In this document: positions 6,070 to 47,719 of the stretch, piece after piece
Numbering within the stretch: position 1 is the stretch's first letter
Layout of the letters: each line of letters opens with the position of its first letter
DNA from: Bacteroidota bacterium
Lineage (GTDB): Bacteria > Bacteroidota > Ignavibacteria > UBA10030 > UBA8401
DNA length: 64,000 nucleotides
Direction: 5' to 3'
NCBI GenBank assembly: GCA_005792285.1
Contig: SXSI01000047.1
Span: forward strand, 18,497 to 82,496
The notes under the pieces: model-generated
What the model was told of the DNA's origin: nothing
Database searches by the model: none
The model's input: the letters and a program-made list of their open reading frames with translations, nothing else
Position numbers and translations under genes: made by a program

Positions 6070-6093
6070 TTATAATAAATTTATTCTGCAATA

Positions 6094-7791: not shown

Positions 7792-7794
7792 CTA

Positions 7795-9615: not shown

Positions 9616-9622
9616 ATTGAGT

Positions 9623-11525: not shown

Positions 11526-11541
11526 TCCCGTGTAAAATATT

Positions 11542-12972: not shown

Positions 12973-12975
12973 CTC

Positions 12976-14526
12976 TTATTTGCTTAATTGATTTGGATTA
13001 ATATTTTGAATGCTTTGATTCATTTGTGTTACAATATTTTTTGAGCTGTTAGTTGTGATTTTTAAAAATGTTGATGGATAAATTCCAATCCACACGATAA
13101 ATATAATAATTGGAATTAATAAACCGATTTCTCTTTTAGAAAGATCATTTAATTTTGAATTTGATTCGCTTGTAATTTTTCCAAAGACAACTCTTTGAAA
13201 CATCCACAACATATAAACTGCAGATAAAATTACTCCACTTGTTGCAAATATTGTAAACCATTTTGATGGAATAAATGAACTATTAAAAGAACCAACTAAA
13301 ATTAAAAATTCTCCAACAAATCCGTTTAATCCCGGAAGTCCAATTGATGAAAGAGTTACAATCATAAAAAAAGTTGAGAAAATTGGAATTGATTTTGCGA
13401 GTCCGCCAAAGTCAGAAATTTCACGAGAATGTTTTCTATCGTATAACATTCCAACTAATAAAAATAATGCACCTGTTGAAAGTCCGTGATTTACCATTTG
13501 TAAAATACTTCCCTGTAAAGATTCTTCAGTCGCTGCAAAAATTCCTAACACTACAAATCCTAAATGACTTACTGAAGAATAGGCGACTAATTTTTTAATA
13601 TCAGTTTGAACCATTGAAACTAATGCGCCATAAATAATTCCAACGACTGCCAAAGTAATTAATATTGCAGTCAATTGAATTGCTGCTTGCGGAAATAATG
13701 GTAAACTAAATCTTGCTAAACCGTAAGTTCCCATTTTCAAAAGAACGCCAGCAAGAATTACACTTCCGGCAGTTGGTGCTTCAACATGTGCATCGGGTAA
13801 CCAAGTATGCAATGGAAATAATGGAACTTTTATTGCAAATGAAATTGTGAATCCAAGAAATAAAATTATTTGTATTTCTTTTGGAATTAAATGAACAATT
13901 GAAAGTAACTTAAAATAATCAGTTGTGAATATTCCATCTGGTTGAAGTGCTGCAAAATTTCCCATCCATAATATTGCAATCAGCATTAATAAACTTCCTG
14001 CCATTGTGAAAATGAAAAATTTAATTGTTGCATAAATTTTATTTTTTCCTCCCCAAATTCCAATAATAAAGTACATTGGAATCAACATTGCTTCCCAAAA
14101 TATATAAAAGAGGAAAAGATCTGTCGAAACAAAAACACCGATCATTCCAACTTCGAGTAATAACATAAATACTGTAAACTCTTTAACTCTCTTTTTAATT
14201 GAATTGAATGAAGAAATTAAAGTTATCGGAGTTAAAAATGTTGTGAGCAAAATTAATACTAACGAAAGTCCATCAATACCAACTGCATATTTGACATCAA
14301 TAAAGTTTATTAGAGGAATTGATTTTATAAATTGGAAAGATGAATCGTTGATATTGTAAATATTATAAAGATAAATTGAAATTATAAATGTAAATATACT
14401 TGTAACAATTCCAATATATTTTAAAAATGTATCTTCTTCTTGTTTGATTAATAGTAAAATTAAAACTCCAACTAATGGAGAGAAAAGTAAAATGGTTAAA
14501 ACATTTTGTTCGAATTGTAATAACAT
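12976..14526 (-). CDS. nuoM: NADH-quinone oxidoreductase subunit M.
   Basis: A 516-aa antiporter-like subunit lying between nuoL and nuoN. Confidence 0.85.
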   Translation of the reverse strand: MLLQFEQNVLTILLFSPLVGVLILLLIKQEEDTFLKYIGIVTSIFTFIISIYLYNIYNINDSSFQFIKSIPLINFIDVKYAVGIDGLSLVLILLTTFLTPITLISSFNSIKKRVKEFTVFMLLLEVGMIGVFVSTDLFLFYIFWEAMLIPMYFIIGIWGGKNKIYATIKFFIFTMAGSLLMLIAILWMGNFAALQPDGIFTTDYFKLLSIVHLIPKEIQIILFLGFTISFAIKVPLFPLHTWLPDAHVEAPTAGSVILAGVLLKMGTYGLARFSLPLFPQAAIQLTAILITLAVVGIIYGALVSMVQTDIKKLVAYSSVSHLGFVVLGIFAATEESLQGSILQMVNHGLSTGALFLLVGMLYDRKHSREISDFGGLAKSIPIFSTFFMIVTLSSIGLPGLNGFVGEFLILVGSFNSSFIPSKWFTIFATSGVILSAVYMLWMFQRVVFGKITSESNSKLNDLSKREIGLLIPIIIFIVWIGIYPSTFLKITTNSSKNIVTQMNQSIQNINPNQLSK

Positions 14527-16457
14527 TAAATAATCATCCTCAATAAAATTAAGACAACTCCCATAACAAAAATTAATACATAAGTATCAGTAACTCCGGT
14601 TTGAATTTTTACAAAAAGCGAAGAAAGATATTCTGTAATTCTTCCAGAAGCATTAATAAATTCATCAATAATTTTTACATCTAATTTTTTCCATAAAACT
14701 GAATCCGAAAAATTTTTAATTGGATTTACAACTACTTTATCGTAAAACTCATCAACAAAATATTTATTGAATAATAATTTATATCCATAATTATATTTTT
14801 TGGATATTTTTTCCGCAATCGAATTATCTTTTAAATACAAATGTCGTGCAAATAATATTCCACCAACAGCTAATGCAACAGAAATAGACATTAAAAGATA
14901 TTCCATAAATATTTCATCATGAGCAATAGGTAGTTGATAATTTGCTCTTTTAAAAATTGGTTCTAAAAATTCTTCAAATTTATTTGAACCTCCGAGAAAA
15001 TGTGGAATCCCAATTAATCCGCCAATTGCTGAAAGTACTGCAAGAATAATTAATGGAATTGTCATTGCAGAAGGAACTTCTTTCGGATGCAAATCTTCAT
15101 CAAATCTTTCTTCACCATTAAAAACTAAAGTAACTAATCTGAAAATATAAAATGCAGTTAAGCACGCTCCAATTATTCCGAAGAGCCATAACCAAATTGA
15201 ACCACTTGAAAATGCTTTCCAAAGTATTTCGTCTTTACTAAAAAATCCTGAAAGTGGAGGAATTCCTGAAATTGCAAAAGCTGCGATAAAAAATGTTGCA
15301 GCTGTTTTGGGAAGATATTTTTTAAGTCCACCCATTTTTTGAATATTCTGTTCATGATGAAGCGAATGAATTATTGCACCAGCTCCCAAAAATAAAAGTG
15401 CTTTAAAAAATGCGTGAGTCATTAAATGAAAAACTCCAACAGAAAATGCTCCAACTCCACAAGCAAGAAACATAAATCCAAGTTGACTGAGTGTTGAGTA
15501 AGCTAATATTTTTTTAATATCATTTTGAACTAATGCAATTGTTCCTGCAAAAACTGCAGTGCAAATTCCAATTACCGCAACCACATCCATTGTAATTGGA
15601 GCGAGAATAAACATTGTTGAACTTCGCGCAAGCAAATAAACTCCGGCGGTAACCATTGTTGCTGCATGAATTAATGCGCTAACTGGAGTTGGGCCAGCCA
15701 TTGCATCCGGCAACCAAACAAATAATGGAATTTGTGCCGACTTTCCTGTTGCGCCCAAAAATAAAAGTAAAGTAATTGCTGTTAAAATTTTATCGCCACT
15801 TGGAATTACTGATGCTTGACTAAAAACTGAAAGAAATTGTAACGAACCAAATTCTTGAACAATTAAAAACATCGCGATAAGAAATCCAAAATCACCAATT
15901 CTATTTACGATGAATGCTTTTTTGGCTGCAACACTTGTAGTGCTATTTTCAAAATCTCTGTCATACCAAAATCCAATTAATAAATAGGAACACAAACCAA
16001 CTCCTTCCCAACCTAAAAACATTAACAGAAAATTATCTGCGAGGACAAGATTCAACATTGTAAAAATAAATAAATTTAAATATGCGAAGAATCTCCAATA
16101 ACCAGAATCTCCGTGCATATAACCAGTTGCGTAAATATGAATCAACGAACCAACTCCTGTAATTATCAAAGTCATTAAAATTGAAAGCTGATCAATTTGA
16201 TAAGATATATCTACATTTATCGAGCCAACATTTATCCAAGAAAAGAGTGTTACAATTTTTAATCTTTCTTCAGTTGGAAGGTTTATCATTTCAAAGAATA
16301 TAAATGTTGAAACTAGAAATGAAAGTGAAACCGCTAAAACCGAAATTGAACCAATAATTTTTTCAGATTTTATTTTTGAGCCCAATAACCCATTAATTAA
16401 AAATCCGATTAAAGGAAAAAGTGGAATCAAACCAATAAATTGATACATGCTTACCAT
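14526..16457 (-). CDS. nuoL: NADH-quinone oxidoreductase subunit L.
   Basis: A 643-aa protein with an N-terminus typical of NuoL and a long C-terminal extension. Confidence 0.85.
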
Positions 16458-25978: not shown

Positions 25979-26965
25979 TTATTTCTTGCCAAGAAATTCA
26001 AATATTTTAGAGATGAACTCATCATGTTTTTCTAAATAGAAAAAATGCCCTGCATTTTCAAACATATGCATTTCAGAATTTGCAAGAGAATTATGCAACG
26101 ATTCTAAAACGAATGAAGAAATATAATCATGTTGGCCGACCAATATTAAAGCTTTTGCATTAACTCCTTTTAGATCATCACGTGTATCAAAAGTTTTTAA
26201 ACTTCCTGATATATCAAAATATCCTGTTTGACCCCAAATTTCTTTATAAACTGCCCACGATCTTTCTGGAGTAGAAAAATTTTCAGGTATTGAAGTTCTA
26301 TTATAAAAATAATTTGGACTAAGAATTCCATTAAAAATTTCCTGCTCATAACCACTTGAATATTGACCGTCGATAAATAAACTATCTCTTTCGTAAGCTT
26401 TAATTCTTGCAACAGCAGCTCTTGGAAGAAAATTTCTAAATGAGTTTATCCAAACATTTAGATCATTTGCATCTGCGGGACTACTCATCAAAACCATTCT
26501 TTGTACATCGTTTGGATTTTTAATTGCATATTTTTGCGCCAACATTCCGCCAGTTTCATGACCAATAATAAAAAATTGTTTTAATCCCATAACTGATTTT
26601 ACAGATTCGATATCAGCAACCATATCATCAAAATTATATTTTTTAGGATCAATAAAACCTTGAGATTTTCCGCAACCTCGCAAATCAACATAAATTAATT
26701 GAAGAGTTGTGTCTAATGGAGTTAAGGTATCTTGTAAATAATCAAATGAATAACCTGGTCCTCCAGGAAGAACAATTGTCGGAGTTCCCCTTCCTTGAAT
26801 ACGAATATAAATTTCTACTCCATCTTTTCCTTTTACATATCCGGTTACTATTTTACTTAACAATGGCAACAAATCTGTTTGGACAGAACTTATCGGAGCA
26901 TCACTTGAACAACCGGCAGAAATTAAGATTATGAATATATTTAGGATTAGAAATAGTTTTTTCAT
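25979..26965 (-). CDS. Alpha/beta-hydrolase lipoprotein (proline-iminopeptidase-like fold).
   Basis: Lipobox ILISAGCSS. Oxyanion motif PGGPGYS and a nucleophile elbow GHETGG. Confidence 0.7.
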   Translation of the reverse strand: MKKLFLILNIFIILISAGCSSDAPISSVQTDLLPLLSKIVTGYVKGKDGVEIYIRIQGRGTPTIVLPGGPGYSFDYLQDTLTPLDTTLQLIYVDLRGCGKSQGFIDPKKYNFDDMVADIESVKSVMGLKQFFIIGHETGGMLAQKYAIKNPNDVQRMVLMSSPADANDLNVWINSFRNFLPRAAVARIKAYERDSLFIDGQYSSGYEQEIFNGILSPNYFYNRTSIPENFSTPERSWAVYKEIWGQTGYFDISGSLKTFDTRDDLKGVNAKALILVGQHDYISSFVLESLHNSLANSEMHMFENAGHFFYLEKHDEFISKIFEFLGKK

Positions 26966-27002
26966 TTTTAAAGTTTAATTTATTTTTTGAATATATTCAT
27001 AT

Positions 27003-27584
27003 TTATTTTTTTAACCAAAGGGATAATTTCTTTTTTATCTCTTTTTCAGTAAGCATTGATTGACCTATATTTTGAGTGTTATATTTTTGTCGTAGCATTT
27101 CATATAAAATAACAGCACAAGATACAGAGACATTCAAACTTTGCACCATTCCGCGCATTGGAATATAAATTGTTTCATCAATATAAGGATGCATTTCTTC
27201 CGAGATTCCTTGATGTTCGTTTCCCAAAATTATTGCAGCTTTTCCATTAAAGCTAATATCAAAAAGGGATTTCGAGTTTTCATCAATTTTTGTTGCGTAA
27301 AATTTATACCCTTTTTTCTTTAAGGAAGTAAAACATTTTTTAATAGAAATATGGTTTTTTTTATCAACCCATTTGTTTGCACTTGCAGAACTTTTTCTAC
27401 CGAGTTTTGGAAATTTCCCATTCGGATAAAGCAAATGAATTTCAGATATTCCAACTGCATCTGCAGTTCTGAATATTGCAGAAACATTATGAGGATCATT
27501 AATATTTTCCAATACTATCGTCAAATCAGTTATTCTGCGACGAAGAACTTTTTCTAATTTATTTTTCCTTTTCTCAGTCGCCAT
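27003..27584 (-). CDS. trmH: SpoU/TrmH-family RNA 2'-O-methyltransferase (tRNA Gm18 methyltransferase-like).
   Basis: The SpoU SPOUT class fold, with the motifs NDPHNVSAIFRTADAVGI and ILGNEHQGIS. Confidence 0.8.
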   Translation of the reverse strand: MATEKRKNKLEKVLRRRITDLTIVLENINDPHNVSAIFRTADAVGISEIHLLYPNGKFPKLGRKSSASANKWVDKKNHISIKKCFTSLKKKGYKFYATKIDENSKSLFDISFNGKAAIILGNEHQGISEEMHPYIDETIYIPMRGMVQSLNVSVSCAVILYEMLRQKYNTQNIGQSMLTEKEIKKKLSLWLKK

Positions 27585-28467
27585 TTGAAGTTTTATTTTG
27601 CAAAGTCAGAATAACAATTGAAGCAATAACCAAAAATGCACCAGCTCCTTGAATTAAAGAAAATGTAATTCCTAAAAATATTATTTCTGAACCGATTGCA
27701 AATATTGGTTCCAAGGTTGAAGTTAAAATTGCTTTTGTGCTTGATAATAATTTTAATCCATAAAAAAAACAGGAGTATGGAATTAAAATTGAAATAATTG
27801 CAATTACGGAATAAAGCAACCAATCATTCGAACTATAGTTTGCTGCAGCAATTTCCATTGGCGAATTTACTGTAATCCAAAATAATGATGCTGCTAATAA
27901 TGTGTACAACATTGAAGTTATACTTTGATATTTATTTAAAAGTTTTTTTGCAGACAATGTGAATGTTGCAAAAGAGAATGCAGCTAATACTGCATAAATA
28001 ATTCCTCTTTTAGAAGATTCAGTTAAATTAAATTCAAATCCACCAATTGCTAAATAAATTCCTACAAAAGAAATTATTATTGAATATAATAGTACTCTAC
28101 TTAATTTTTCACGAAGGATAAACACAGAATAAAGTGCTACTAATATTGGAGCCGTATATTGTACTAAAATTGCATTCGATACTGTTGTTTCTTTTATAGC
28201 TGAATAATAAAAATAATTAGACCCTGCTAATCCAAATATTCCTGTAATAATAAAATATTTAAAATCCTTCCAATCTATCTTTAATAATTCCCGTTTAAAA
28301 AAATATAAATAGATAAATAAAAGTATTGCAGATATTGTAACGCGAGTTTGCGATAAAATTAAAGGATCTCCAGTTTTTTCAAGAACTATTTTTACAACAG
28401 TTGCGGAAATTCCCCAAAAGAAAGATGCAATAACAACAAAAATATAACCTCGCAGCGAACTTCTCAC
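27574..28467 (-). CDS. EamA/DMT-family membrane transporter.
   Basis: A 10-TM protein with the two duplicated EamA halves. Confidence 0.75.
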   Translation of the reverse strand: MRSSLRGYIFVVIASFFWGISATVVKIVLEKTGDPLILSQTRVTISAILLFIYLYFFKRELLKIDWKDFKYFIITGIFGLAGSNYFYYSAIKETTVSNAILVQYTAPILVALYSVFILREKLSRVLLYSIIISFVGIYLAIGGFEFNLTESSKRGIIYAVLAAFSFATFTLSAKKLLNKYQSITSMLYTLLAASLFWITVNSPMEIAAANYSSNDWLLYSVIAIISILIPYSCFFYGLKLLSSTKAILTSTLEPIFAIGSEIIFLGITFSLIQGAGAFLVIASIVILTLQNKTSNGD

Positions 28468-28471
28468 AAGT

Positions 28472-30211
28472 CTATTTGCATATCAACAAAGGTGAGACTT
28501 TAATTTTTCCATCAATAGAAAGTATACAATAGTAAGTTCCGGACGAAAGTGATAATGTATTAAATTTCACTTCGTATTTCCCTTTTTGAACTTGTTGATT
28601 GAAGATCGTGCTAATCAGCTGTCCGGAAATAGAATAGATTTTGATTTCTGCATTTGATTCTGAAGATGAATTAATTTGAAAAGTTGTCGACGGATTTGCG
28701 GGATTTGGAAATATATTAAAATCTGAATTCTGTTTTCCATTTTCAGAATGCTTTACAAATGTTACAATAATATTATCTTTTCCACCGGCATCTAAATATC
28801 GAGCTTTAAATTCCTGTAAAAATAAATTTGCAATTCTATTACTCTGAATGATTACAGTATTTTCGTTATTCGTATTTTCTGCTGAAGTAGACCAATTGTG
28901 TGAACCAGTTACAACTTTTCCTTGCAATGAAGTTTTATCTCCATCAACAATTGCATATTTGTGATGAAAAAATCCACCAAACGAAGATGGCCTTGTGAAA
29001 ATATCAACTCCTGCATTTAGCAAAGTTGCATATTCATTTCCTGTATCAGAATTATTATCCATTAAAACTTTCGTTTTAATACCCTGATTTTTTTTCTGCA
29101 TAATTATTTGCGATAAATCATCTCGAGTAAAAGACAAGACGCAAACATTTATCGATGATAAACTTGATGACAAACAACTATAAATTTGTGAAGTTGTTCC
29201 ATCAGATGGACTAAAATAAGATTCAACAGGAGTATTGTTTATCATAAACCGATGAGGAGTATTGTTAGTTTTTCTATTTCCAAATCTTGTTAAAGATGCA
29301 TTTGGAATTTCTGTTGAACTTCCCCACATTTCTTCGAACTCGCGAGTATATGCATTTGCAAGTGCGACATCCTGAAAAATTACAACATTTTGAGCATCGT
29401 TATTTGTTCCAGGATCTGATGCATTCCACGAACCAGTCCAAATAAAATCATCTTCAAATGATGAAGAATTTCTATTATCAAATATTCCAAATTTATTGTG
29501 CATGTAACCACTTGAAGCGAAAGTATCAAATTTATCTGTTATAAATGGAACACCAGAATTTTTTAAAAGTGTCATTGCCGATGTAGTTGAATTATCTTCT
29601 TCACCAATAAAACGAACTTTCACTCCACGGTTTTTTGCGCTAATTAATGCATTTGCAATTTCTGTGCCAACATTTCCGCTTAAACTATAAAGAGAAATGT
29701 CAATTGTATATTGCGCCAAATTAATTCTCTCAACAAACTTTGAACCTAAATTTGCAACAGTTGCATTTTCACCAAGTGAAACTGAATTGTTCACATATTT
29801 TGAAAAGTAAACCCAAATAGCTCCCGAAACAGAAAGTGGTGAAGCTGTACTGAAAAGAAAATTTCCAGAATTACCTGTTCCAGTAGAATCCTTCGAACCA
29901 ACTGAACAATTATAAATTGTCGCTGGAATTAAATTATTTAATTTAATCGAATGTGAAGTAACATTATCATTTGAACTAACTGAATCAGTGTAAAGTTTCG
30001 CTCCATCTACTTTTCCAAATCTAACAATACCTGTTGATTTAATATTACTATTCCAAGTAATTGTAATATTATCGGAATAAATATTTTTTTCTATTGGCAA
30101 ACCAAGTACAAGTGGCACAGATAACTGATTTTGGCAATATATCCACGAAGGAGTGAATCCAATAACGAAAATTGTTGTGAGAATTAAATAAATATTCTTA
30201 AATGTTTTCAA
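28472..30211 (-). CDS. Secreted phospholipase D (PLD)-superfamily enzyme with two HKD motifs and a T9SS C-terminal sorting domain.
   Basis: Signal peptide. The first HKD motif is HNKFGIFD...TGSWNAS. The second is HHKYAIVDGD...TGSHNWS. The C-terminal region of about 80 aa, NIFPNPANPSTTFQI...KIYSISGQLISTI...SSGTYYCIL, is a typical T9SS sorting domain. Confidence 0.75.
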   Translation of the reverse strand: MKTFKNIYLILTTIFVIGFTPSWIYCQNQLSVPLVLGLPIEKNIYSDNITITWNSNIKSTGIVRFGKVDGAKLYTDSVSSNDNVTSHSIKLNNLIPATIYNCSVGSKDSTGTGNSGNFLFSTASPLSVSGAIWVYFSKYVNNSVSLGENATVANLGSKFVERINLAQYTIDISLYSLSGNVGTEIANALISAKNRGVKVRFIGEEDNSTTSAMTLLKNSGVPFITDKFDTFASSGYMHNKFGIFDNRNSSSFEDDFIWTGSWNASDPGTNNDAQNVVIFQDVALANAYTREFEEMWGSSTEIPNASLTRFGNRKTNNTPHRFMINNTPVESYFSPSDGTTSQIYSCLSSSLSSINVCVLSFTRDDLSQIIMQKKNQGIKTKVLMDNNSDTGNEYATLLNAGVDIFTRPSSFGGFFHHKYAIVDGDKTSLQGKVVTGSHNWSTSAENTNNENTVIIQSNRIANLFLQEFKARYLDAGGKDNIIVTFVKHSENGKQNSDFNIFPNPANPSTTFQINSSSESNAEIKIYSISGQLISTIFNQQVQKGKYEVKFNTLSLSSGTYYCILSIDGKIKVSPLLICK

Positions 30212-30306
30212 TTGATTTTTGTCCTATAATCCATTATATTTTCATTCAATTTACAAAATAATATTAAGTAAAAAACAGAAAAGAAAAAATTCATAATAAC
30301 AACCGC

Positions 30307-30328
30307 AAATTGCAAATCGTTGCAATTT
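30307..30328 (+). promoter_or_regulatory. Perfect 9-bp inverted repeat (AAATTGCAA-atcg-TTGCAATTT) 17-38 nt upstream of the secD GTG. It is a candidate operator or a hairpin in the 5'-UTR.
   Basis: Read directly from the secD upstream intergenic region. Confidence 0.3.
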
Positions 30329-30344
30329 ATTCGGAGAATAAAGC

Positions 30345-32222
30345 GTGAAAAAAAACAGAGGTAAAATATTTTTAATTATAGCAACTATCGCAATGTCGAT
30401 ATATTCGCTCTATCCAACTTATGTCTCAAATAGTTTTGATAAAGAAATTTCAAACTTAAGTGGAAATGATAGTCTTAAATATGTCGAGGAAAATGAAGAA
30501 GCTATAAGGGAAGCCAAAAACAGCCGTCTTAAAATTGGTTTGGATCTTCAAGGTGGAATGCGAGTTGTACTTGAAGTTGAAATCTCTAAACTAATTGAGG
30601 ATATGGCAAAAAATAAAGATGATCAATTTTATAGTATTCTAAATGAAGTTAAAGAAGAATCCAAAACTTCAGAATTATCAATAATTGATTTGTTTACTCA
30701 AAATTTTCAAAAAAATAATCTTAGACTTTCAAGATATTACGGAAGCTTACGGGATGAGAATGATGTAATTGTTGATAAACTTAATTCTGAATCTGAGAAA
30801 GCTATCGATCGTGCAATTGAAATTATTCGTAATAGAGTTGACCAATATGGTGTTTCAGAACCATCAATTCAAAAACAGGGTTCGCGAAGAATTATTGTTG
30901 AACTTCCTGGAGTTTCAAAAGAAAATGAAGTTCGTCAACTTCTTCAAGGAACTGCGCTACTTGAATTTAAATTAATGAAGGATCCTGAAATAGTTTATAA
31001 AACTATGCAAGTCATCGACACTTATCTTGCAAAAAATAATAACGGGATTTCAGATTCAACAATTACTAAAAGTGGAAAAGAAAAAACTTCAAATACTTTA
31101 GAATCATTAACTTCAAATGATACATCAACAGCAAGTTTAGCTGATAAATCACCAGAACAAATTCGAAAAGAACATCCATTTCTTTATTTAGTTCGACCAA
31201 ATCAAGAAGGAACTGGCGATTCATATGTTTCTGAAAATGATAAAGAAAAAGTTGATCGGATTTTATCGCAAGAAGCAATTCAGCAATTAATTCCTTCAGA
31301 TATGGCTTTTTACTGGACTTCAAAACAAATGTTTATTAGTGAAGGAATAAAATATTTCGGTCTTCTTGGCTTAAAAAAGAATGCAGAATTAACCGGTGCT
31401 GTAGTTGAAGATGCAAAAGCTACAATTGATCCAGATTTTAATCAACCGATTGTAACAATGGAAATGAATAGCGAAGGTTCGCGCGAATGGGCAAGAATTA
31501 CAGGTGCAAATCTTAAAAAGAGAATGGCGATTGTTTTGGATAACGCTGTATTTTCGGCTCCAGTTATTCAATCAAAAATTACTGGTGGTCGTTCACAAAT
31601 TGAAGGAATGGAAAATATTGATGAAGCTCGACTGCTTGAAATTATTTTAAAAGCTGGTGCATTACCAGCTCCAGTAGAAATTATTGAACAACGAAGTGTC
31701 GGACCAACACTCGGTGAAGATTCTATAAAAGCAGGTATAAATTCATTTATTTTAGCTTTGATTGTTGTAATCCTATTTATGATAATGTACTATCGCACTG
31801 GTGGATTTGTTGCAAATATTTCTCTTCTTATAAATACTTTATTTATTTTTGCAGTCCTTACTGCTTTTAAAGGAACACTTACTCTTCCTGGAATTGCTGG
31901 AATAGTTTTGAGTATTGGAATGGCAGTTGATGCGAACGTACTTATTTATGAAAGAATTAGAGAAGAATTAGCTTCTGGAAAATCTTTACGTGTTGCAATT
32001 GAAACTGGTTATGCAAAAGCTTTTTCTGCAATTTTCGATTCTAACATTACAACATTTTTCTCAGGTTTGATTTTATATCAATTTGGAACAGGACCAATTC
32101 AAGGTTTCGCATTAACATTAATAATGGGCGTCTCAGCAAATCTGTTTACAGCAATTACAATCACAAAAGTTACATTCCAAACGTTACTTGATCGTGGAAC
32201 TTCGAAAATTAATTTTGGTTAA
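30345..32222 (+). CDS. secD: Protein translocase subunit SecD (GTG start).
   Basis: N-terminal TM, a large periplasmic domain and a C-terminal 6-TM RND-like domain. It sits immediately upstream of secF. Confidence 0.9.
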   Translation: MKKNRGKIFLIIATIAMSIYSLYPTYVSNSFDKEISNLSGNDSLKYVEENEEAIREAKNSRLKIGLDLQGGMRVVLEVEISKLIEDMAKNKDDQFYSILNEVKEESKTSELSIIDLFTQNFQKNNLRLSRYYGSLRDENDVIVDKLNSESEKAIDRAIEIIRNRVDQYGVSEPSIQKQGSRRIIVELPGVSKENEVRQLLQGTALLEFKLMKDPEIVYKTMQVIDTYLAKNNNGISDSTITKSGKEKTSNTLESLTSNDTSTASLADKSPEQIRKEHPFLYLVRPNQEGTGDSYVSENDKEKVDRILSQEAIQQLIPSDMAFYWTSKQMFISEGIKYFGLLGLKKNAELTGAVVEDAKATIDPDFNQPIVTMEMNSEGSREWARITGANLKKRMAIVLDNAVFSAPVIQSKITGGRSQIEGMENIDEARLLEIILKAGALPAPVEIIEQRSVGPTLGEDSIKAGINSFILALIVVILFMIMYYRTGGFVANISLLINTLFIFAVLTAFKGTLTLPGIAGIVLSIGMAVDANVLIYERIREELASGKSLRVAIETGYAKAFSAIFDSNITTFFSGLILYQFGTGPIQGFALTLIMGVSANLFTAITITKVTFQTLLDRGTSKINFG

Positions 32223-33249: not shown

Positions 33250-35457
33250 TTAGAGTGAACCTTCAATGCTAAATACAAACTGTCTCATTGGTGCCACATT
33301 TGCAATCAATTCAACATAGACGTAATTAAAAATATTTAGTACTTGAAAGTTTAATCTTAAAGGAAGATTGTAATCTGTTAAATCGTAACTCGATCTAAAG
33401 TCAGTAATAAAAGAAGGAACTCTAATATCAGAATTTACAACGATAAGCTCTAAAGCTTTATCAATTTTTTCGATTTTACTTACGAACCTTGAATCAAATC
33501 CAAAAGTAAATTTATCCATTGTTGTAAAAATATTTGTACTCGCAACATATCTTGGACGGAATGAAAGTACAGTTTTATCTTTTGTATTGTAAGGCCATGA
33601 ATAAGTTAAATTAAAATCCCATTTAACCATATTGTCAAACCAAGTTGTACTTGTATTCCATTCAGCTCCTTGAATTAATGCCTCTGTAACATTCATGAAT
33701 TTAGCTTCCAATCCTGAGCCATCATCTTTTGCATATGCAATTGCTTCAATTAAATTATCAATTTTGTTACTGAAGACCGAGAAATCAGTTGTGATATTGT
33801 CACTAATTTGTTGAATTACTCCAACTTCGAATGATTGACTTTCTTCCGGTAAAAGCGTTGGATTTGAAACTACAAAAACGCCAGCTAAATTTATTGTAGT
33901 GAATAATTCTGCTGTCGATGGAGAACGATATCCTTTTCCCCAAGAACTTCTTAATGAAGTGTTTTCAGACATTATATAATTAACTGCAACTTTTGGATTA
34001 AAATTATAGTTGGATTTTTTAAGACCATCAACTTTTTGATAATCGTATCTTCCACCAACTGTAAAATTTAAATTTTCTAAATATGCGTACTCAGCTTGTA
34101 AATAACTCGCAAATCCCATACTTCCAGGCTTTGAACCAGTCGTTGGCAAGCGAAACAAATTTGCATTTACTTGATCTTTTTTTGCTACAACTCCAAATGT
34201 TGTATAAATCTCATCATTGACTTTATAGTTACCTTGAATTTCAGCATTAAAAACTCTTGATTGCGAATTATTCATTCCGGTACCAATACTATCCCATGCT
34301 CGCCAGAAACTATAAAAATAAACTGCTTTTATATCGTAAGAAAAATCTTCAGTTAATTTGTCACTCCATTTTAAAGATGTATTTAGTCTATCTGTTCGAT
34401 AAGTAACCCCTTTTTGATCATCTGCAACTGTTAAAGCGTTATCAAGATTTTTCCACCAAACAAAGTCTGCTCTGTATTGATACAAAAAGTTTGTAATAAA
34501 AGTTAACGATCTTGTTTCGCCAAATGGAACATCAACCTTAGTGTAAGTCATTGCTCTTCTTGACCAGTTATATTCTCTAAAACCATCGTCATGATAACGT
34601 GTTCCGGCAAAAGTAAATCCAATATCTCCAAATCTATGAGACATACTCAAATATTGTGCATTCATATACAATGGTTTGTCATGCCACTTCCATTTACTAA
34701 ATGCTTTAGGTGGATTGTCGTACAATTTTCCCAACATTCTAAATCTTACTTCAGTATTTAATGGAATTGGTCTTGTCAAAATATTAATTACGCCACCTAA
34801 TGCGCTTGAACCATAAAGTGCGGAACCGGCACCTTTTACAATCTCAACTCTATCAGTATTTAACATTGGAATAGATTCAAAAATTATTTCGCCAGTATCA
34901 CCAGTTAATAATGGCATTCCGTCGAGTAAAAACATAACTCTACTTCCGACACCGCGACTATATCCTGAAGATCCACGAATACTTACCGAACTTTCAATAA
35001 TATTTACTCCGGGAACAAATCTGAGTGCTTCGTCAAAACTTGCATTACTTCTCATTTCGACAGTTTGATTATCGATAATGCTCATACTAACTGGGACTTC
35101 AGCAAGAGATTGTTCTCTTTTATTTGCAGTAACAACTACTAAATTAGTTTGAATTTCTGAATGACTTAATTTTACATTTACAACTTTGGTTTCATTTTCA
35201 GTAATTTCGATATTCACAGTTTTCTTAGAATAACCTACCATCGAAACCGAAAGTTTATGTGAGCCCAAAGCCAATTTTAATTCATATACACCATCTACAT
35301 CAGTTGCTGCTCCTTGAGTTGTTCCTACAATTATAACAGTAGCACCAACTAAAGGTAAATTATCGTCAGAACCAGTAACTATTCCTTTTACACTTCCCTC
35401 TTGTGAAAAAGAAAAACTAAACAAAATCAATAATATTGAAATTAATTTATTAATCAT
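33250..35457 (-). CDS. TonB-dependent receptor with an N-terminal carboxypeptidase-regulatory-like domain.
   Basis: Signal peptide, CarbopepD_reg motif (KGIVTGSDDNLPLVGATVIIVGTTQGAATDVDGVYEL), a plug domain and a beta-barrel. Confidence 0.85.
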   Translation of the reverse strand: MINKLISILLILFSFSFSQEGSVKGIVTGSDDNLPLVGATVIIVGTTQGAATDVDGVYELKLALGSHKLSVSMVGYSKKTVNIEITENETKVVNVKLSHSEIQTNLVVVTANKREQSLAEVPVSMSIIDNQTVEMRSNASFDEALRFVPGVNIIESSVSIRGSSGYSRGVGSRVMFLLDGMPLLTGDTGEIIFESIPMLNTDRVEIVKGAGSALYGSSALGGVINILTRPIPLNTEVRFRMLGKLYDNPPKAFSKWKWHDKPLYMNAQYLSMSHRFGDIGFTFAGTRYHDDGFREYNWSRRAMTYTKVDVPFGETRSLTFITNFLYQYRADFVWWKNLDNALTVADDQKGVTYRTDRLNTSLKWSDKLTEDFSYDIKAVYFYSFWRAWDSIGTGMNNSQSRVFNAEIQGNYKVNDEIYTTFGVVAKKDQVNANLFRLPTTGSKPGSMGFASYLQAEYAYLENLNFTVGGRYDYQKVDGLKKSNYNFNPKVAVNYIMSENTSLRSSWGKGYRSPSTAELFTTINLAGVFVVSNPTLLPEESQSFEVGVIQQISDNITTDFSVFSNKIDNLIEAIAYAKDDGSGLEAKFMNVTEALIQGAEWNTSTTWFDNMVKWDFNLTYSWPYNTKDKTVLSFRPRYVASTNIFTTMDKFTFGFDSRFVSKIEKIDKALELIVVNSDIRVPSFITDFRSSYDLTDYNLPLRLNFQVLNIFNYVYVELIANVAPMRQFVFSIEGSL

Positions 35458-35969
35458 TTTTTAAAAGGTTGTGGTGGAAGATTTTTGAAATCAACTATAA
35501 GATCAACATCATAAATTTTTCCTTTTTGGGTTAAAGTTAAACTTTTTGGATTCGGAATTGTTTTTGTAGATCCGTAGACAGAAATAACTTGCCAGTCAGT
35601 TAAAAAATTTGTTCCATATTGGTGAAGTAGTGCAATGTATTTATATTCTCCCGGTGGCAAATCGAAAGTAAAATTTATTACATCTCCAGAATCTAATCCT
35701 TCTAAATTTAATGTTGATGTAACAGGAATTTTTCCAGTAAGAATTCCCTGAGTTAAGATTGAATCAAAAGTTGAGTACAATGGATAAAATGGTGAGGCGC
35801 CAATTCTCATACTTTTTAAACTATCAACCGGTGGAACTTTACTTATAAATTTAATTTTACCGACTAAAGCTGGAGTGGGATAATATTCGACTAATCCACT
35901 ATCGTCTCCACAGGAAAGAATTACTAATGAAACTACAAATGTTGCTATAACTTTTAAGTTGACTCTCAT
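35454..35969 (-). CDS. Hypothetical lipoprotein, translationally coupled to the downstream TonB receptor by a 4-nt overlap.
   Basis: Lipobox VILSCGDDSG. I recognise no domain in it. Confidence 0.5.
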   Translation of the reverse strand: MRVNLKVIATFVVSLVILSCGDDSGLVEYYPTPALVGKIKFISKVPPVDSLKSMRIGASPFYPLYSTFDSILTQGILTGKIPVTSTLNLEGLDSGDVINFTFDLPPGEYKYIALLHQYGTNFLTDWQVISVYGSTKTIPNPKSLTLTQKGKIYDVDLIVDFKNLPPQPFKK

Positions 35970-40216: not shown

Positions 40217-42496
40217 TTACTTCATCAAGATCATTTTCCTAATTTCACTTTGTCCGTTTGATTGAAGTTTGTCTGAATGGATTGCTAAGCGATAATAATA
40301 AACTCCACTTGCCAAGTTGCTCGCATTAAAATGTGCAGTGTGAAATCCAGATTCTACTTCTCCATTAACTAAAGTTGCAATTTCTTTTCCTAATACATCG
40401 TAAATTTTTAATGTTACTTTACTGCTAATTGGCAATTGATAATTTATTATCGTTTCGTTGTTAAAAGGATTAGGATAATTTTGTTCTAAACTAAAACTAT
40501 TAATTATCAAATTATCTTTTTTAACTGAAACTGTTTTTTGCATCGCCGCCAATACATCAACTTTCCCAGCTCCCCATTGATTATTCCAAGTTGTGCCAGT
40601 ATAAGAATCTGTTCGAGCAGTAGTTTTTAATAACGTTTTAATTTGGTCGTTTGTTAAAGCTGGCTTGGCTTGTAACATCAAAGCAACAGCTCCGGCAATT
40701 TGTGGAGCAGCCATACTTGTTCCTTGTTCAATTACATGTTTACCACCAGTTACAATGTATGGTGCTTCAGGATTAAAATCTTTAGATTTTGAAGCTGCAA
40801 TTGCTTGTCCGGGAGCAGAAATATCGGGCTTTTGTCCACCAGTTCTTGTTGGTCCGGGACTTGAAAATGTTGCATAATTATTTACTCGTGTTGCTCCATT
40901 ATAATTATAACTACTTCCGTTGCTCGAAGTCCATGACCATTTTGTTACATAAGCTCCAACTGTAATTCCTTTTGTTGAAGTTCCTGGCATTCCAACTAAT
41001 TTTCTACGTTGCGAACCTTTTGTAAATTCAACCCACATATCAGCATTATTTCCGAAATCAGAAATCCAAGCGTCGTAAGTTGCATTTGCAGTTGAACCAC
41101 TTGTTAATGAGAAAGTCAATTTCCAAACTCCTGCTTTTGGGGGTTTACTTGCATCAGAATCAATTACTTCAATCCAACATTCTTTTGTATCGTTAATTGG
41201 ATTTGGACCACCAGCAGCATTTGAAATTTTTACGTACCCTTCACTTCCAGTAGTTTGTGTTACAGTTTGTAATCCATGGTTCGCTGTTACTAATTGTCCC
41301 ATTGGAGTTGTTAATGAAATATTAATTGAAAATTGTTTTGGATACCAAATTGAGAAAACAAAATAATCGTTATTAATTCCTGCTTCAGGAGTGTAAGTAT
41401 CAACTGTAAATTCAGTTTCAATTGGTGAACTAACAATTGTGCTGTCGTGATGGATATAATCTTCACCTTCATTCCCGGCGGCAATAATAATTGCTCTTCC
41501 GGCTTTTGCAAGTTCATCATCAATTTTTTTCTCTTCTGCAACTGTTCCATCATGCGGACCATCATGTCCACCTAAACTTAAATTAATTACAAATGGTTTT
41601 CCGGCAGCTTCAGCTTTTTGGCGAATATAAGTTATCGCGTCAATCATTCTGCTTGATGAAAATCCACCGGTATTATTATTTCCATTTACAATAATTAAAT
41701 CTGCAAGTGGCGCAACTCCAATATATTTTGTAGTTGCATAAGATGAACCATTTCCCGCAGCAGAACTTGCAACGTGTGTTCCATGTCCATCTGTATCAAT
41801 TTGCTTTACAAGATTTGTAGGAGTTCCATCAAGTTCATCATTAATTTGTACTTGAGTATATTCTGAACCATAACTAAATCCAGCTGGTTTTGTGCCAGTC
41901 GAAATTCCTTGATCCCAAATACTTATAATTCTTGTTTTGGTTGGATCGGACTCAGATCTAAAATCAAGATGTTGCCAATCAATTCCCGTATCAAAAACCC
42001 CAACAATTATTCCTGTTCCTTTGTATTGCGTTCCATTTACTTGTCCCGAATGAACAAGATTTGCTTTAATCTCAGCTAAACTTGTGTTGAGTTTCTTTTT
42101 ATATCTTCGTGGAGGTTCAATAAATTTTGTTGAAGAAAGTTGGCTTACTTGTGAAATTTCAGAAAGTGAAAGATGCGCGGTATAAAATGTTTTTTCAATT
42201 GTATTAATCGAAGAACTTTTTATTCCATTTATAAGTGCATCTTTAACACCATCATCCAAATTTGTATAAACAATAACTTCATAAATATTTTCGCCATTTG
42301 GATTTCTACCAATCGCTTGTATTCTGGAATGTTTTGGTTGATTTGATTCTTGGGAAGTTCTGACTACATCCTCTATAAATAGTACAAACCGACTATCTAC
42401 TTTAGATTTATTATATTTTGAAATTTCCTTTTGTGAAGTTACTACATTGTTAAAGATACATATTATGAGCATAAAGCTTTGTAAAATTTTATTCAT
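40217..42496 (-). CDS. Secreted S8-family subtilisin-like serine peptidase with a T9SS C-terminal sorting domain.
   Basis: Catalytic triad motifs are GIIVGVFDTGID (Asp), HGTHVASSAAG (His) and GTSMAAPQIAGAVALM (Ser). The C-terminal domain NYPNPFNNETIINYQL...KIYDVLGKEIATL...SGVYYYRL is a T9SS sorting domain. Confidence 0.85.
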   Translation of the reverse strand: MNKILQSFMLIICIFNNVVTSQKEISKYNKSKVDSRFVLFIEDVVRTSQESNQPKHSRIQAIGRNPNGENIYEVIVYTNLDDGVKDALINGIKSSSINTIEKTFYTAHLSLSEISQVSQLSSTKFIEPPRRYKKKLNTSLAEIKANLVHSGQVNGTQYKGTGIIVGVFDTGIDWQHLDFRSESDPTKTRIISIWDQGISTGTKPAGFSYGSEYTQVQINDELDGTPTNLVKQIDTDGHGTHVASSAAGNGSSYATTKYIGVAPLADLIIVNGNNNTGGFSSSRMIDAITYIRQKAEAAGKPFVINLSLGGHDGPHDGTVAEEKKIDDELAKAGRAIIIAAGNEGEDYIHHDSTIVSSPIETEFTVDTYTPEAGINNDYFVFSIWYPKQFSINISLTTPMGQLVTANHGLQTVTQTTGSEGYVKISNAAGGPNPINDTKECWIEVIDSDASKPPKAGVWKLTFSLTSGSTANATYDAWISDFGNNADMWVEFTKGSQRRKLVGMPGTSTKGITVGAYVTKWSWTSSNGSSYNYNGATRVNNYATFSSPGPTRTGGQKPDISAPGQAIAASKSKDFNPEAPYIVTGGKHVIEQGTSMAAPQIAGAVALMLQAKPALTNDQIKTLLKTTARTDSYTGTTWNNQWGAGKVDVLAAMQKTVSVKKDNLIINSFSLEQNYPNPFNNETIINYQLPISSKVTLKIYDVLGKEIATLVNGEVESGFHTAHFNASNLASGVYYYRLAIHSDKLQSNGQSEIRKMILMK

Positions 42497-45884: not shown

Positions 45885-46426
45885 TATTTTTTATCCCACT
45901 TATATTCTGTTTTTTTATCATGTTTATTTTGAAATCTAGCCATCACAAACAAAAGATCGGAAAGCCGATTTAAATAAATTATTATTTGATTATCTATTTT
46001 TTCCTGTTTACTTAATGATACAACAAGTCTTTCTGCACGCCTTGAAACTGTTCTGGCAAAATGAATAAATGCAGCACACTTTGAACCACCGGGTAAAATA
46101 AAATTTTGTAATTGCGGTAATTCAGAGTCGAGTGTGTCAATAAATTTTTCTAATTGTAAAATATTTTCATCTGCAATTTTATACGTTTTACTTTTTACTT
46201 CATTCGGAGTTGCAAGATCAGCACCAATTACAAAAAGTTCATTCTGAATTATTTTTAAAATATTATCTATTTTTTTTGCACATTTATTTGATCGTGCTAA
46301 TCCAATTACACTATTGAGTTCATCGACTGTTCCATAACATTCAATTCGCAAAATATCCTTACTAACTCTTTTCCCACCATAGAGCGAGGTTTCTCCTTTA
46401 TCTCCGGTTTTTGTATATATTTTCAT
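45884..46426 (-). CDS. PduO-type ATP:cob(I)alamin adenosyltransferase.
   Basis: N-terminal IYTKTGDKGETSL and a length of about 180 aa. The stop overlaps the secA start (TAATG). Confidence 0.8.
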   Translation of the reverse strand: MKIYTKTGDKGETSLYGGKRVSKDILRIECYGTVDELNSVIGLARSNKCAKKIDNILKIIQNELFVIGADLATPNEVKSKTYKIADENILQLEKFIDTLDSELPQLQNFILPGGSKCAAFIHFARTVSRRAERLVVSLSKQEKIDNQIIIYLNRLSDLLFVMARFQNKHDKKTEYKWDKK

Positions 46427-47631: not shown

Positions 47632-47675
47632 TTAGCTCAGTTTATTTTGATAAAGTACTTACAAGATAAAAAAAA

Positions 47676-47703: not shown

Positions 47704-47719
47704 AATTAAAAACTGGAAA

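What the first reader, a model, noticed from the sequence alone, without database searches (positions are those of the whole stretch)
28472..30211. T9SS-targeted two-HKD phospholipase-D-superfamily enzyme
A secreted protein of about 580 aa. It has an N-terminal beta-sandwich region, two complete HxK(x4)D...GSxN motifs and a canonical type IX secretion C-terminal domain. A PLD-fold enzyme exported by T9SS could be an extracellular nuclease or a phospholipase acting on other cells' membranes. The S8 protease at 40217-42496 also carries a T9SS C-terminal domain, so this window holds two T9SS cargo enzymes. The PLD gene is co-oriented with, and 4 nt from, an EamA exporter and the TrmH gene.
Basis: partly seen in the sequence, partly recalled or inferred. 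Interest (0 to 1): 0.5.

Follow-up and report, generated by a model that had tools for sequence, protein, structure and literature searches.

The report
T9SS-exported two-HKD nuclease-like enzyme
This gene from an uncultured Ignavibacteria bacterium encodes a secreted enzyme of the phospholipase-D superfamily that most likely cuts extracellular DNA or RNA without needing metal ions; it belongs to a large, routinely annotated but untested family, so it is a sound but fairly ordinary find.

Summary
Window 28472-30211 (-) is a 579-aa ORF with four parts: a signal peptide, an FN3-like beta-sandwich, a bilobed PLD core and a type A T9SS C-terminal domain. The core carries two complete HxK(x4)D...GSxN motifs (H238/K240/D245/G260-S261-N263 and H416/K418/D423/G436-S437-N439). 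The sorting domain scores above the curated cut-offs.

All HKD residues are invariant in 77 homologues of 37-97% identity. The family is large: at least 581 loci in species-representative genomes, almost all from FCB-group lineages.

Nuclease or lipase was not settled. By sequence, each lobe is closest to Zucchini, Nuc and NucT, and lipid PLDs and cardiolipin synthases are not detected. By fold, PLD4 ties with a deposited phospholipase D. Longer homologues carry N-terminal modules shared with ExeM/NucH DNases and with the DNA-uptake protein DdbD.

I read it as a metal-independent extracellular nuclease delivered by T9SS (about 0.6). No activity has been shown.

T9SS core genes could not be checked. 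The same contig does encode a PorV/PorQ-family protein about 300 bp outside the window, a weaker PorV/FadL-like gene beyond the other end, and two further cargo proteins.

Verdict: a new member of a known kind, of modest interest.

The parts
28472..30211 (-). Whole gene: 579-aa secreted two-HKD PLD-superfamily enzyme (stop codon at 28472-28474)
   Evidence: ORF list and sequence. Pfam and NCBIfam hits. The identical product is called on ENA and NCBI contigs.
30134..30211 (-). Sec signal peptide, about residues 1-26 (MKTFKNIYLILTTIFVIGFTPSWIYC|QNQ). The predicted mature N-terminus is Gln27.
   Evidence: Read directly from the sequence: a Lys-rich n-region followed by a hydrophobic h-region. Residues 1-28 have pLDDT below 50. 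The cleavage site is an inference, because no signal-peptide predictor was available. A Gln after the cleavage site fits the Bacteroidetes Q-rule (PMC5837995).
29837..30115 (-). FN3-like / purple-acid-phosphatase-N-like beta-sandwich (residues about 33-125)
29321..29824 (-). PLD lobe 1 (residues 130-297)
   Evidence: PLDc_2 stretch. Matches Drosophila Zucchini chains at E about 5e-18 in the profile search. It is 27% identical to lobe 2, E 4e-12.
29423..29500 (-). HKD motif 1: H238-N-K240-FGIF-D245 ... G260-S261-W-N263
   Evidence: Regex. H238, K240, D245, G260, S261 and N263 are invariant in 77 sequences. The CAC codon for H238 is at 29500-29498.
29234..29320 (-). Conserved basic inter-lobe linker (residues 298-326), containing R309-F-G-x-R313-K314-x-x-N-T318-P-H320
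   Evidence: K314, T318 and H320 are invariant. R309, F310, G311, R313 and P319 are 84-98% conserved. The segment has pI 11.7. Its role is inferred, not shown.
28778..29233 (-). PLD lobe 2 (residues 327-478)
28895..28966 (-). HKD motif 2: H416-H-K418-YAIV-D423 ... G436-S437-H-N439, followed by N448-x-E450-N451
   Evidence: Regex. All of these residues are invariant in 77 sequences. The CAT codon for H416 is at 28966-28964.
28475..28723 (-). T9SS type A C-terminal sorting domain (residues 497-579)
   Evidence: PF18962 scores 40.6 bits (cut-off 27) and TIGR04183 scores 40.8 bits (cut-off 23). The model shows seven beta-strands at 498-577 after a low-confidence linker at 484-495. That matches the 7-strand Ig-like CTD fold described in PMC11285876.
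27574..28467 (-). EamA/DMT-family transporter gene, 4 nt downstream and probably co-transcribed
   Evidence: Pfam EamA E 2.8e-46. An EamA homologue lies downstream of the PLD homologue in 18 of 80 related loci, including Ca. Kryptonium. No functional link has been established.
27003..27584 (-). SpoU-family RNA 2'-O-methyltransferase gene, overlapping EamA by 11 nt
   Evidence: Pfam SpoU_methylase E 8.6e-38. Syntenic in 20 of 80 related loci. This is a housekeeping neighbour, not part of the enzyme.
40217..42496 (-). Second T9SS cargo gene in the window: an S8 subtilase with a type A CTD
   Evidence: Peptidase_S8 E 5.6e-42. Por_Secre_tail 39.6 bits (cut-off 27) at residues 674-742.

Best explanation
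The gene encodes a secreted phosphodiesterase of the PLD (HKD) superfamily that most likely works as a metal-independent extracellular nuclease.

Proposed route:
1. The N-terminal signal peptide takes the precursor through Sec, with inferred cleavage before Gln27.
2. The protein folds in the periplasm.
3. [quoted passage not shown] The protein is moved across the outer membrane and then either released or anchored to the cell surface after the CTD is removed.

Proposed chemistry: the catalytic core is a single-chain pseudo-dimer of two Nuc-like units. The two HKD motifs meet at the lobe interface to form one active site. As in other PLD-superfamily enzymes, one histidine (H238 or H416) would attack the phosphodiester to give a covalent phospho-histidine intermediate. 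The other histidine would protonate the leaving group, and water would then resolve the intermediate. No metal is needed.

The substrate is inferred to be extracellular DNA and/or RNA. The products would feed phosphorus, nitrogen and carbon scavenging.

Shown here: the domain architecture, motif conservation, fold, sorting signal and family distribution. Inferred: secretion itself, the nucleic-acid substrate, and endo- versus exonuclease mode.
For: Architecture and motifs.

Conservation: the HKD and GSxN residues are invariant across 77 homologues of 37-97% identity, so the active site is under selection.

Internal duplication: the lobes are 27% identical to each other, E 4e-12.

Sequence affinity to nucleic-acid enzymes:
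- The best NCBIfam enzyme hit is NucT, 70 bits.
- The family profile against all PDB sequences hits Zucchini at 7.5e-23, Nuc at 7.4e-20, NucT at 8.4e-11, the poxvirus nicking-joining enzyme at 1e-5 and the PLD3 exonuclease at 2.5e-5.
- Streptomyces, plant and human PLDs, PssA and cardiolipin synthase are absent at E <= 1e-3.

Domain fusions in homologues:
- About 20 of the best 120 homologues carry DUF5689 (above cut-off in P0012 and P0017).
- DUF5689 is the domain of DdbD, the proposed substrate-binding partner of a TonB-dependent transporter in the DNA-utilisation locus of B. thetaiotaomicron. It is also found in a protein needed for natural transformation in Riemerella.
- All 7 long homologues tested match the first ~110 positions of the ExeM/NucH extracellular endonuclease model. 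These are sub-threshold partial matches to a 546-position model.
- P0089 carries a lamin-tail domain, as ExeM does.

T9SS context:
- A second CTD cargo gene lies in the window.
- The same contig (99.95% identical to the window) encodes a PorV/PorQ-family protein, 203 bits against a cut-off of 90, starting 305 bp beyond the window start.
- Two more CTD proteins follow it.
- The family is almost confined to FCB-group lineages, and 103 of the 120 best homologues carry the CTD.
Against: - No biochemical data exist for any member, as far as the searched literature shows.
- The closest sequence relative, Zucchini/MitoPLD, is deposited as a 'cardiolipin hydrolase'. To my knowledge it has been reported to have both lipid and RNA activities.
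- The PLD core is acidic: pI 5.6 here and a family median of 5.45. That is not what a strongly DNA-binding surface would suggest.
- The window protein is a short form. It lacks the DUF5689 and ExeM-like modules on which the fusion argument rests.
- The TonB-receptor/PorV-like/NHL cluster that sits beside long homologues elsewhere is about 37 kb away in this genome. That linkage is therefore lineage synteny and not a functional signal here.
- The T9SS core genes (gldKLMN, sprA, porU) were not seen.
Confidence: 0.6

Rival explanations
1. It is a true phospholipase D or lipid-headgroup phosphodiesterase. T9SS exports it to attack the membrane lipids of prey, competitors or detritus, or to release phosphate or choline from environmental phospholipids.
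Against: The family profile finds none of the lipid PLD, Cls or PssA chains in the PDB at E <= 1e-3, while the nucleases score 1e-11 to 1e-23. The cardiolipin synthase hit is 26.8 bits against a cut-off of 290 and covers only residues 158-221. The core is the minimal ~340-residue PLD fold. The extra modules in homologues are those of DNases and DNA-uptake proteins, not lipid-binding domains. The JGI name is a generic COG label.
Confidence: 0.2
2. It hydrolyses some other extracellular phosphodiester polymer or small molecule. Candidates are teichoic-acid-like or capsular glycerol or ribitol phosphates, polyphosphate, or cyclic or linear oligonucleotide signals.
Against: There is no positive evidence for any particular alternative substrate. 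The sequence neighbours and the fused modules point to nucleic acids.
Confidence: 0.12
3. It is periplasmic or outer-membrane-retained and serves DNA uptake or transformation, with a role like that of NucT. On this reading it is not a freely secreted scavenging enzyme.
For: The best NCBIfam hit is NucT. DUF5689 proteins fused in homologues are tied to natural transformation in Riemerella. Many T9SS cargos stay attached to the cell surface (established knowledge of the T9SS; PMC11285876).
Against: This is a variant of the main explanation, because the chemistry is the same. No competence genes were seen in the window. The NucT equivalog cut-offs are far from met: 70 bits against 297.
Confidence: 0.08

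Closest known systems
Nuc (Salmonella pKM101 endonuclease, PDB 1byr/1bys) and NucT (Helicobacter pylori, 6ehi)
   Different: Nuc and NucT have one HKD per chain and act as homodimers. Here two diverged units (27% identical) are fused in one chain. Lobe 1 has Q274 where lobe 2 has E450. An FN3-like domain and a T9SS CTD are added. The NucT equivalog cut-offs are not met.
Zucchini / MitoPLD (PLD6; 4ggj, 4gel)
   Same: It is the best sequence match of all solved structures: 7.5e-23 with the profile and 30% identity over 142 aligned residues.
   Different: It is a eukaryotic, mitochondrial-membrane-anchored, single-HKD dimer. To my knowledge it is a piRNA-processing ssRNA endonuclease that was also reported as a cardiolipin hydrolase. 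The localisation and biology are unrelated.
PLD3/PLD4 lysosomal 5'-3' exonucleases (8v05-8v08, 8q1x, 9vbg)
   Different: Identity is only 15-18% and the profile E-value is only 2.5e-5. They are eukaryotic type II membrane glycoproteins with an acidic pH optimum. Whether the present enzyme is exo- or endonucleolytic is unknown.
ExeM/NucH extracellular endonucleases (Shewanella ExeM, PMC6085458)
   Same: The ecological role proposed is the same: a secreted nuclease. Long homologues of the present protein share the ExeM N-terminal nucleic-acid-binding-type module, and one shares the lamin-tail domain.
   Different: The catalytic domain of ExeM is a metal-dependent EEP fold, not PLD. The window protein itself lacks the shared modules.
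Classical two-HKD phospholipases D and cardiolipin/phosphatidylserine synthases (Streptomyces PLD 1f0i/1v0y, PssA 3hsi, Cls)
   Different: They are not detectable by the family profile at E <= 1e-3. They have larger cores with lipid-binding insertions. The NCBIfam Cls hit is 26.8 bits against a cut-off of 290.
T9SS type A CTD cargo proteins (e.g. gingipains; the S8 protease in this window)
   Same: An N-terminal Sec signal plus a C-terminal ~80-residue, 7-strand Ig-like sorting domain that scores above the TIGR04183 and PF18962 cut-offs.
   Different: The passenger domain is a PLD-superfamily enzyme. I found no experimentally studied T9SS cargo of that kind in the searched literature.

Membership tests
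PLD (HKD) superfamily | HxK(x)4D(x)6G(S/T)xN motif(s), two per active site | tested here: met
   Two complete motifs, at 238-263 and 416-439. All motif residues are invariant in 77 homologues.
PLD (HKD) superfamily | Significant match to a curated PLD domain model | tested here: met
   PF13091 PLDc_2, two stretches, 142 bits against a cut-off of 27.
PLD (HKD) superfamily | Bilobed alpha/beta fold with pseudo-twofold symmetry that brings the two HKD motifs together | tested here: met
PLD (HKD) superfamily | Catalysis through a covalent phospho-histidine intermediate, independent of metal ions | not testable with these tools
   Requires enzymology.
Nuc/NucT/Zucchini nuclease clade | Closest sequence relationship within the superfamily | tested here: met
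   Profile against PDB sequences: Zucchini 7.5e-23, Nuc 7.4e-20, NucT 8.4e-11. Lipid enzymes are absent at E <= 1e-3.
Nuc/NucT/Zucchini nuclease clade | Single HKD per chain, with the active site formed by a homodimer | tested here: not met
   Two HKD units are fused in one chain. It works like a covalent Nuc dimer but is not a member in the strict sense.
Nuc/NucT/Zucchini nuclease clade | Reaches the NCBIfam NucT equivalog score | tested here: not met
   70.2 bits against a cut-off of 297 for NF010492. The other NucT models score lower.
Nuc/NucT/Zucchini nuclease clade | Nuclease activity on DNA/RNA | not testable with these tools
   There is only indirect support, from DNase and DNA-uptake modules fused to homologues.
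T9SS type A cargo | C-terminal sorting domain above the curated thresholds | tested here: met
   TIGR04183 scores 40.8 bits (cut-off 23) and PF18962 scores 40.6 bits (cut-off 27), at residues 500-573 at the extreme C-terminus.
T9SS type A cargo | CTD folds as a 7-strand Ig-like beta-sandwich | tested here: met
   Seven strands at 498-577 with pLDDT 85-93, after a flexible linker at 484-495. The fold is as described in PMC11285876.
T9SS type A cargo | N-terminal Sec signal peptide | tested here: inconclusive
   The sequence shows a typical n-, h- and c-region, and residues 1-28 are unstructured in the model. No signal-peptide predictor was available.
T9SS type A cargo | Genome encodes the T9SS machinery (GldK/L/M/N, SprA/Sov, PorU, PorV) | tested here: inconclusive
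   There are no core genes in the 64-kb window. On the same contig a PorV/PorQ-family gene (NF033709, 203 bits against a cut-off of 90; the PorV and PorQ equivalog cut-offs are not met) lies 305-1342 bp beyond the window start. A second PorV/FadL-like gene, with only faint precomputed Pfam hits, lies beyond the window end.
Phospholipase D / cardiolipin synthase (lipid enzymes) | Match to curated Cls or PLD models, or profile similarity to solved lipid PLDs | tested here: not met
   TIGR04265 scores 26.8 bits against a cut-off of 290 and covers only 64 residues. No lipid PLD, Cls or PssA chain is found at E <= 1e-3. There is only superfamily-level fold similarity.
ExeM/NucH extracellular endonucleases | LTD / OB-fold N-terminal modules plus an EEP catalytic domain | tested here: not met
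   The window protein has none of these. Only its longer homologues share the N-terminal module, in 7 of 7 tested at sub-threshold scores.

The most novel reading that the evidence does not exclude
This family would be a so-far uncharacterised class of T9SS-secreted, metal-independent HKD DNases/RNases.

In most members a fused double-Nuc catalytic core has taken the place of the metal-dependent EEP domain in an ExeM/NucH-like modular architecture. The family would then be a main extracellular-nucleic-acid-foraging enzyme of Ignavibacteria, Kryptonia, Eisenbacteria, KSB1 and related FCB lineages in sediments, groundwater and bioreactors.

The invariant basic linker (R-F-G-x-R-K-x-x-N-T-P-H) would be a family-specific substrate-binding element.
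Probability: 0.45. Interest if true: 0.45.

Novelty: new member of a known kind. Interest (0 to 1): 0.3.

Why it matters
If the nuclease reading is right, many uncultured FCB-group bacteria secrete a DNase that needs no divalent cations. That would matter in three ways:
- It bears on the turnover of extracellular DNA as a phosphorus and nitrogen source in anoxic sediments and bioreactors.
- It bears on the stability of eDNA used in environmental surveys.
- An EDTA-resistant nuclease is a candidate biotechnological reagent.

It would also add a new passenger class to the list of T9SS cargos.

As it stands, this is a correct and somewhat sharpened annotation of one member of a large family that pipelines already label. 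It is not a new kind of system.

Tried and rejected
1. The promoter and terminator scan of 26800-30450 gave 23 promoter-like sites against 21.6 expected and 2 terminator-like sites against 1.2 expected. It is uninformative and was not used.
2. Rfam and tRNA scans of the window found nothing.
3. Net charge was tried as a nuclease/lipase discriminator. The core is acidic (pI 5.6) and the linker basic. The result is ambiguous and is listed as mild evidence against.
4. Fold ranking does not discriminate, because PLD4 and a deposited phospholipase D tie.
5. In 17 related loci I first read the arrangement as two PLD paralogues flanking a TonB-receptor/PorV-like/NHL cluster. The upstream protein has no HKD motif. 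It clustered only through a shared N-terminal module and the CTD, so there is one PLD gene per such locus.
6. I considered that cluster as a DNA-utilisation-like locus functionally tied to the enzyme. In this genome the equivalent cluster lies beyond the window end, about 37 kb from the PLD gene, and is followed by an S41 peptidase. The linkage is lineage-specific synteny, and I do not rely on it for this gene.
7. The conserved PLD-(TPR)-EamA-SpoU order gave no functional lead. The TPR gene is absent here.
8. Literature searches for T9SS-secreted PLD or HKD nucleases found nothing relevant.
9. The AFDB fold library was unavailable, and one contig look-up failed.
10. A lipoprotein was rejected, because W-I-Y-C does not fit a lipobox. 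This was read from the sequence.
11. A defence-system PLD (DISARM DrmC, 25 bits against a cut-off of 133) was rejected, because the protein is exported and sits among housekeeping genes.
Full report
**1. Observation**

It lies at window 28472-30211 on the minus strand, is 579 aa long and uses a TTG start. Independent gene calls on public contigs give the same 579-aa product.

Direct motif search finds HNKFGIFD at residue 238 and HHKYAIVD at 416. Each is followed about 20 residues later by GSWN (260) or GSHN (436).

- Pfam PLDc_2 matches in two stretches at E 1.3e-41.
- Por_Secre_tail scores 40.6 bits (cut-off 27) at 500-570.
- Pur_ac_phosph_N/fn3 at 43-120 is below its cut-off.
- NCBIfam TIGR04183, the T9SS type A sorting domain, scores 40.8 bits (cut-off 23).

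The neighbour statements are also right. An EamA transporter gene (27574-28467) begins 4 nt after the stop codon. A SpoU-family methylase (27003-27584) overlaps it by 11 nt. The S8 protease at 40217-42496 carries its own CTD at 39.6 bits. 'TrmH' is verified only at the level of the SpoU family.

**2. Anatomy**

An AlphaFold2 model built on 77 homologues has mean pLDDT 89.9. It shows:
- an unstructured N-terminus (1-28), which is the signal peptide;
- a beta-sandwich at 35-121;
- a bilobed alpha/beta core at 132-474;
- a low-confidence linker at 484-495;
- a seven-strand beta-sandwich at 498-577.

The two catalytic lobes are 27% identical to each other (E 4e-12). The core is therefore a tandem duplication of one HKD unit.

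The signal peptide reads MKTFKNIYLILTTIFVIGFTPSWIYC|QNQ. The cleavage site is my inference. A Gln as first mature residue would fit the Bacteroidetes 'Q-rule' (PMC5837995).

**3. Conservation and distribution**

The word-indexed search returned 2922 proteins at E <= 1e-5 among 8000 scored candidates. Of the best 120, 103 carry the CTD and about 20 carry DUF5689.

In an alignment of 77 homologues (37-97% identity), these residues are invariant:
- motif 1: H238, K240, D245, G260, S261, N263;
- motif 2: H416, H417, K418, D423, G436, S437, N439;
- downstream of motif 2: N448, E450, N451.

Two family-specific features stand out. Lobe 1 has Q274-N275 where lobe 2 has E450-N451. The inter-lobe linker carries a strictly conserved basic motif, R309-F-G-x-R313-K314-x-x-N-T318-P-H320.

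They come from Ignavibacteria and other Bacteroidota, Kryptonia, Eisenbacteria, KSB1, Zhuqueibacterota, Fermentibacteria and a few oddly labelled MAGs. The best match is only 52% identical.

The exact protein occurs on NCBI GCA_005777725.1 and on a 418-kb ENA contig. Members of its 90% cluster, and of the window's SecA and S8 clusters, are labelled 'MAG... [Ignavibacteria bacterium]'.

**4. Nuclease or lipase?**

Sequence evidence points to the nucleic-acid side of the superfamily.
- The best NCBIfam enzyme hit is NucT at 70 bits, far below its equivalog cut-off of 297. Cardiolipin synthase reaches only 26.8 bits over 64 residues.
- The family profile against all PDB sequences finds mouse and other Zucchini chains (7.5e-23 to 1.4e-16), Nuc (7.4e-20) and NucT (8.4e-11).
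- Much weaker hits follow: the poxvirus nicking-joining enzyme (1e-5), PLD3 (2.5e-5) and one 'phospholipase' (7e0m, 1.9e-4).
- Streptomyces, plant and human PLDs, PssA and cardiolipin synthases are not found at E <= 1e-3.

An independent line comes from domain fusions.
- Most homologues in the species-representative genomes are longer. The first HKD lies at about residue 750 in 54 of 78 ORFs and at 370-522 in 17 more.
- In these long forms the N-terminal extension matches DUF5689. The match is above the Pfam cut-off in P0012 and P0017.
- In 7 of 7 tested, the extension also matches the first ~110 positions of the ExeM/NucH extracellular endonuclease model. These are partial, sub-threshold matches.
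- One homologue (P0089) also has a lamin-tail domain.
- DUF5689 is the domain of DdbD, proposed to be the substrate-binding partner of the TonB-dependent transporter in the B. thetaiotaomicron DNA-utilisation locus (bioRxiv 10.1101/2025.03.18.642099). It is also found in RA0C_RS04920, which is needed for natural transformation in Riemerella (PMC8459023).
- ExeM is built as LTD + OB-fold region + EEP nuclease, and its OB-fold region is essential (PMC6085458).

The usual family architecture thus looks like an ExeM/NucH-type extracellular nuclease in which a two-HKD core replaces the EEP domain. The window protein is a short form that keeps only FN3, PLD and CTD.

Evidence on the other side:
- The core is acidic (pI 5.6; family median 5.45).
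- Zucchini's depositor name is 'cardiolipin hydrolase'.
- No member has been assayed.

I put the nuclease reading at about 0.6, a lipid PLD at about 0.2, and other phosphodiesters at about 0.1.

**5. T9SS context**

The 64-kb window is a housekeeping chromosomal region. It contains complex I subunits, NusB, PBP1, LpxL-like and heptosyltransferase genes, SecDF, SecA, fumarase, citrate synthase, MetRS, BamA-like and TopA genes, among others. It holds no T9SS core genes.

Contig look-ups extended the view. L084 is 99.95% identical to window 1-16069. It shows that the partial ORF at the window start is a 1198-aa protein. It is followed by:
- a 345-aa PorV/PorQ-family protein, 305-1342 bp outside the window (NF033709 at 203 bits against a cut-off of 90; the PorV and PorQ equivalog cut-offs are not met);
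- two further CTD-bearing proteins, one BNR-like and one an alpha-amylase.

Beyond the other end lies a TonB receptor, a PorV/FadL-like gene with only faint precomputed Pfam hits, and an NHL gene.

At least four CTD cargos and one clear PorV/PorQ-family gene therefore lie within about 85 kb. Reviews list Ignavibacteriota among phyla that may have T9SS (PMC11285876, PMC5837995).

**6. Gene neighbourhoods**

A PLD-(TPR)-EamA-SpoU order recurs in about 16-20 of 80 related loci, from Ignavibacteria to Ca. Kryptonium. The TPR gene is missing here. I could not derive a function from this linkage.

In 17 other loci a long PLD homologue follows a cluster made of a CTD protein with the ExeM-like module, an unknown lipoprotein, a TonB receptor, a PorV/PorQ-family protein (225 bits) and an NHL protein. 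In this genome the same cluster sits about 37 kb away and is not next to the PLD gene. I treat that as lineage synteny.

**7. Mechanism proposed**

The proposed steps are:
1. Sec export and signal-peptide cleavage (inferred).
2. Recognition of the type A CTD and T9SS translocation, with release or surface attachment (inferred from the validated signal).
3. Hydrolysis of nucleic-acid phosphodiesters at a single active site formed by the two HKD motifs. This would go through a phospho-histidine intermediate without metal ions. The chemistry is established for Nuc and other PLD-superfamily members and is inferred here from the invariant motifs.

The conserved basic linker is a candidate phosphate-backbone contact. 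This is speculative.

**8. Comparison and verdict**

The protein is a bona fide PLD-superfamily member and a bona fide type A CTD protein. It works like a covalently fused Nuc dimer. It is not a Nuc/NucT member in the strict sense, because it is not a single-HKD homodimer and does not reach the equivalog score. It fails the tests for cardiolipin synthase and classical PLD.

Annotation pipelines already label the family as 'phospholipase D-like domain-containing protein', 'T9SS type A sorting domain-containing protein' or 'HKD family nuclease'. I therefore rate it a new member of a known kind. Interest is modest at 0.3. What is open is the untested substrate, not a new type of system.

Noticed in passing
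window 1-6069 (-) and L084:12770-22766: A CarboxypepD_reg TonB-dependent receptor (3304-6069) is followed by a 1198-aa secreted protein with no family hit. That protein is full of 'DGIDNDxNGxIDE' calcium-binding-like repeats, and only part of it lies in the window (1-3303). Just outside the window come a PorV/PorQ-family gene (203 bits) and two T9SS-CTD proteins, one BNR-like and one an alpha-amylase. This looks like an outer-membrane uptake and secretion cluster of unknown substrate.
   Followed up: partly
L086:1-4229 (same contig, roughly 2.7-6.9 kb beyond window position 64000): A TonB receptor (933 aa), a PorV/FadL-like gene (323 aa) and an NHL-repeat protein (410 aa). The same trio lies directly upstream of long-form PLD homologues in 17 of 80 related Ignavibacteria loci. 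Here it is followed by an S41 peptidase instead. The function of this conserved trio is unknown.
   Followed up: partly
window 46423-50971 (-): A type I phosphodiesterase / nucleotide pyrophosphatase (PF01663, 310 bits) lies immediately downstream of a 1083-aa CarboxypepD_reg + OMP_b-brl_4 outer-membrane barrel. This may be a nucleotide or phosphoester scavenging pair that could act on the products of a secreted nuclease.
   Followed up: no
window 35454-35969 (-): A 171-aa ORF with no Pfam or NCBIfam match. Its stop overlaps the start of the TonB-dependent receptor gene (33250-35457) by 4 nt.
   Followed up: no
window 27003-30211 (-); L058, L059, L017, L026 and others: The gene order PLD-(TPR protein)-EamA-SpoU methylase is kept from Ignavibacteria to Candidatus Kryptonium, although the proteins are only 40-50% identical. 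The TPR gene is missing in this genome. L017 and L026 also keep the divergent SecDF genes.
   Followed up: partly
window 30134-30211 (-): The predicted mature N-terminus is glutamine (…WIYC|QNQ), as in the Bacteroidetes 'Q-rule' for signal peptidase I substrates. That rule was reported as not general across the FCB group.
   Followed up: no
L082 (NCBI GCA_005777725.1 SXLJ01000001.1): In this assembly the sequence matches the window at 99.9% only as far as the middle of the SpoU gene, which is called as 145 aa instead of 193. It then continues into unrelated genes (a pseudouridine synthase and DUF4476). This is either a rearrangement or a chimeric join in the MAG.
   Followed up: no
window 7795-9615 (-) and L084:20739-22766: There are two alpha-amylase-family genes within about 15 kb. 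The one in the window has no CTD. The one just outside carries a T9SS CTD. This suggests a cytoplasmic/periplasmic enzyme and a secreted enzyme for starch-like substrates.
   Followed up: no
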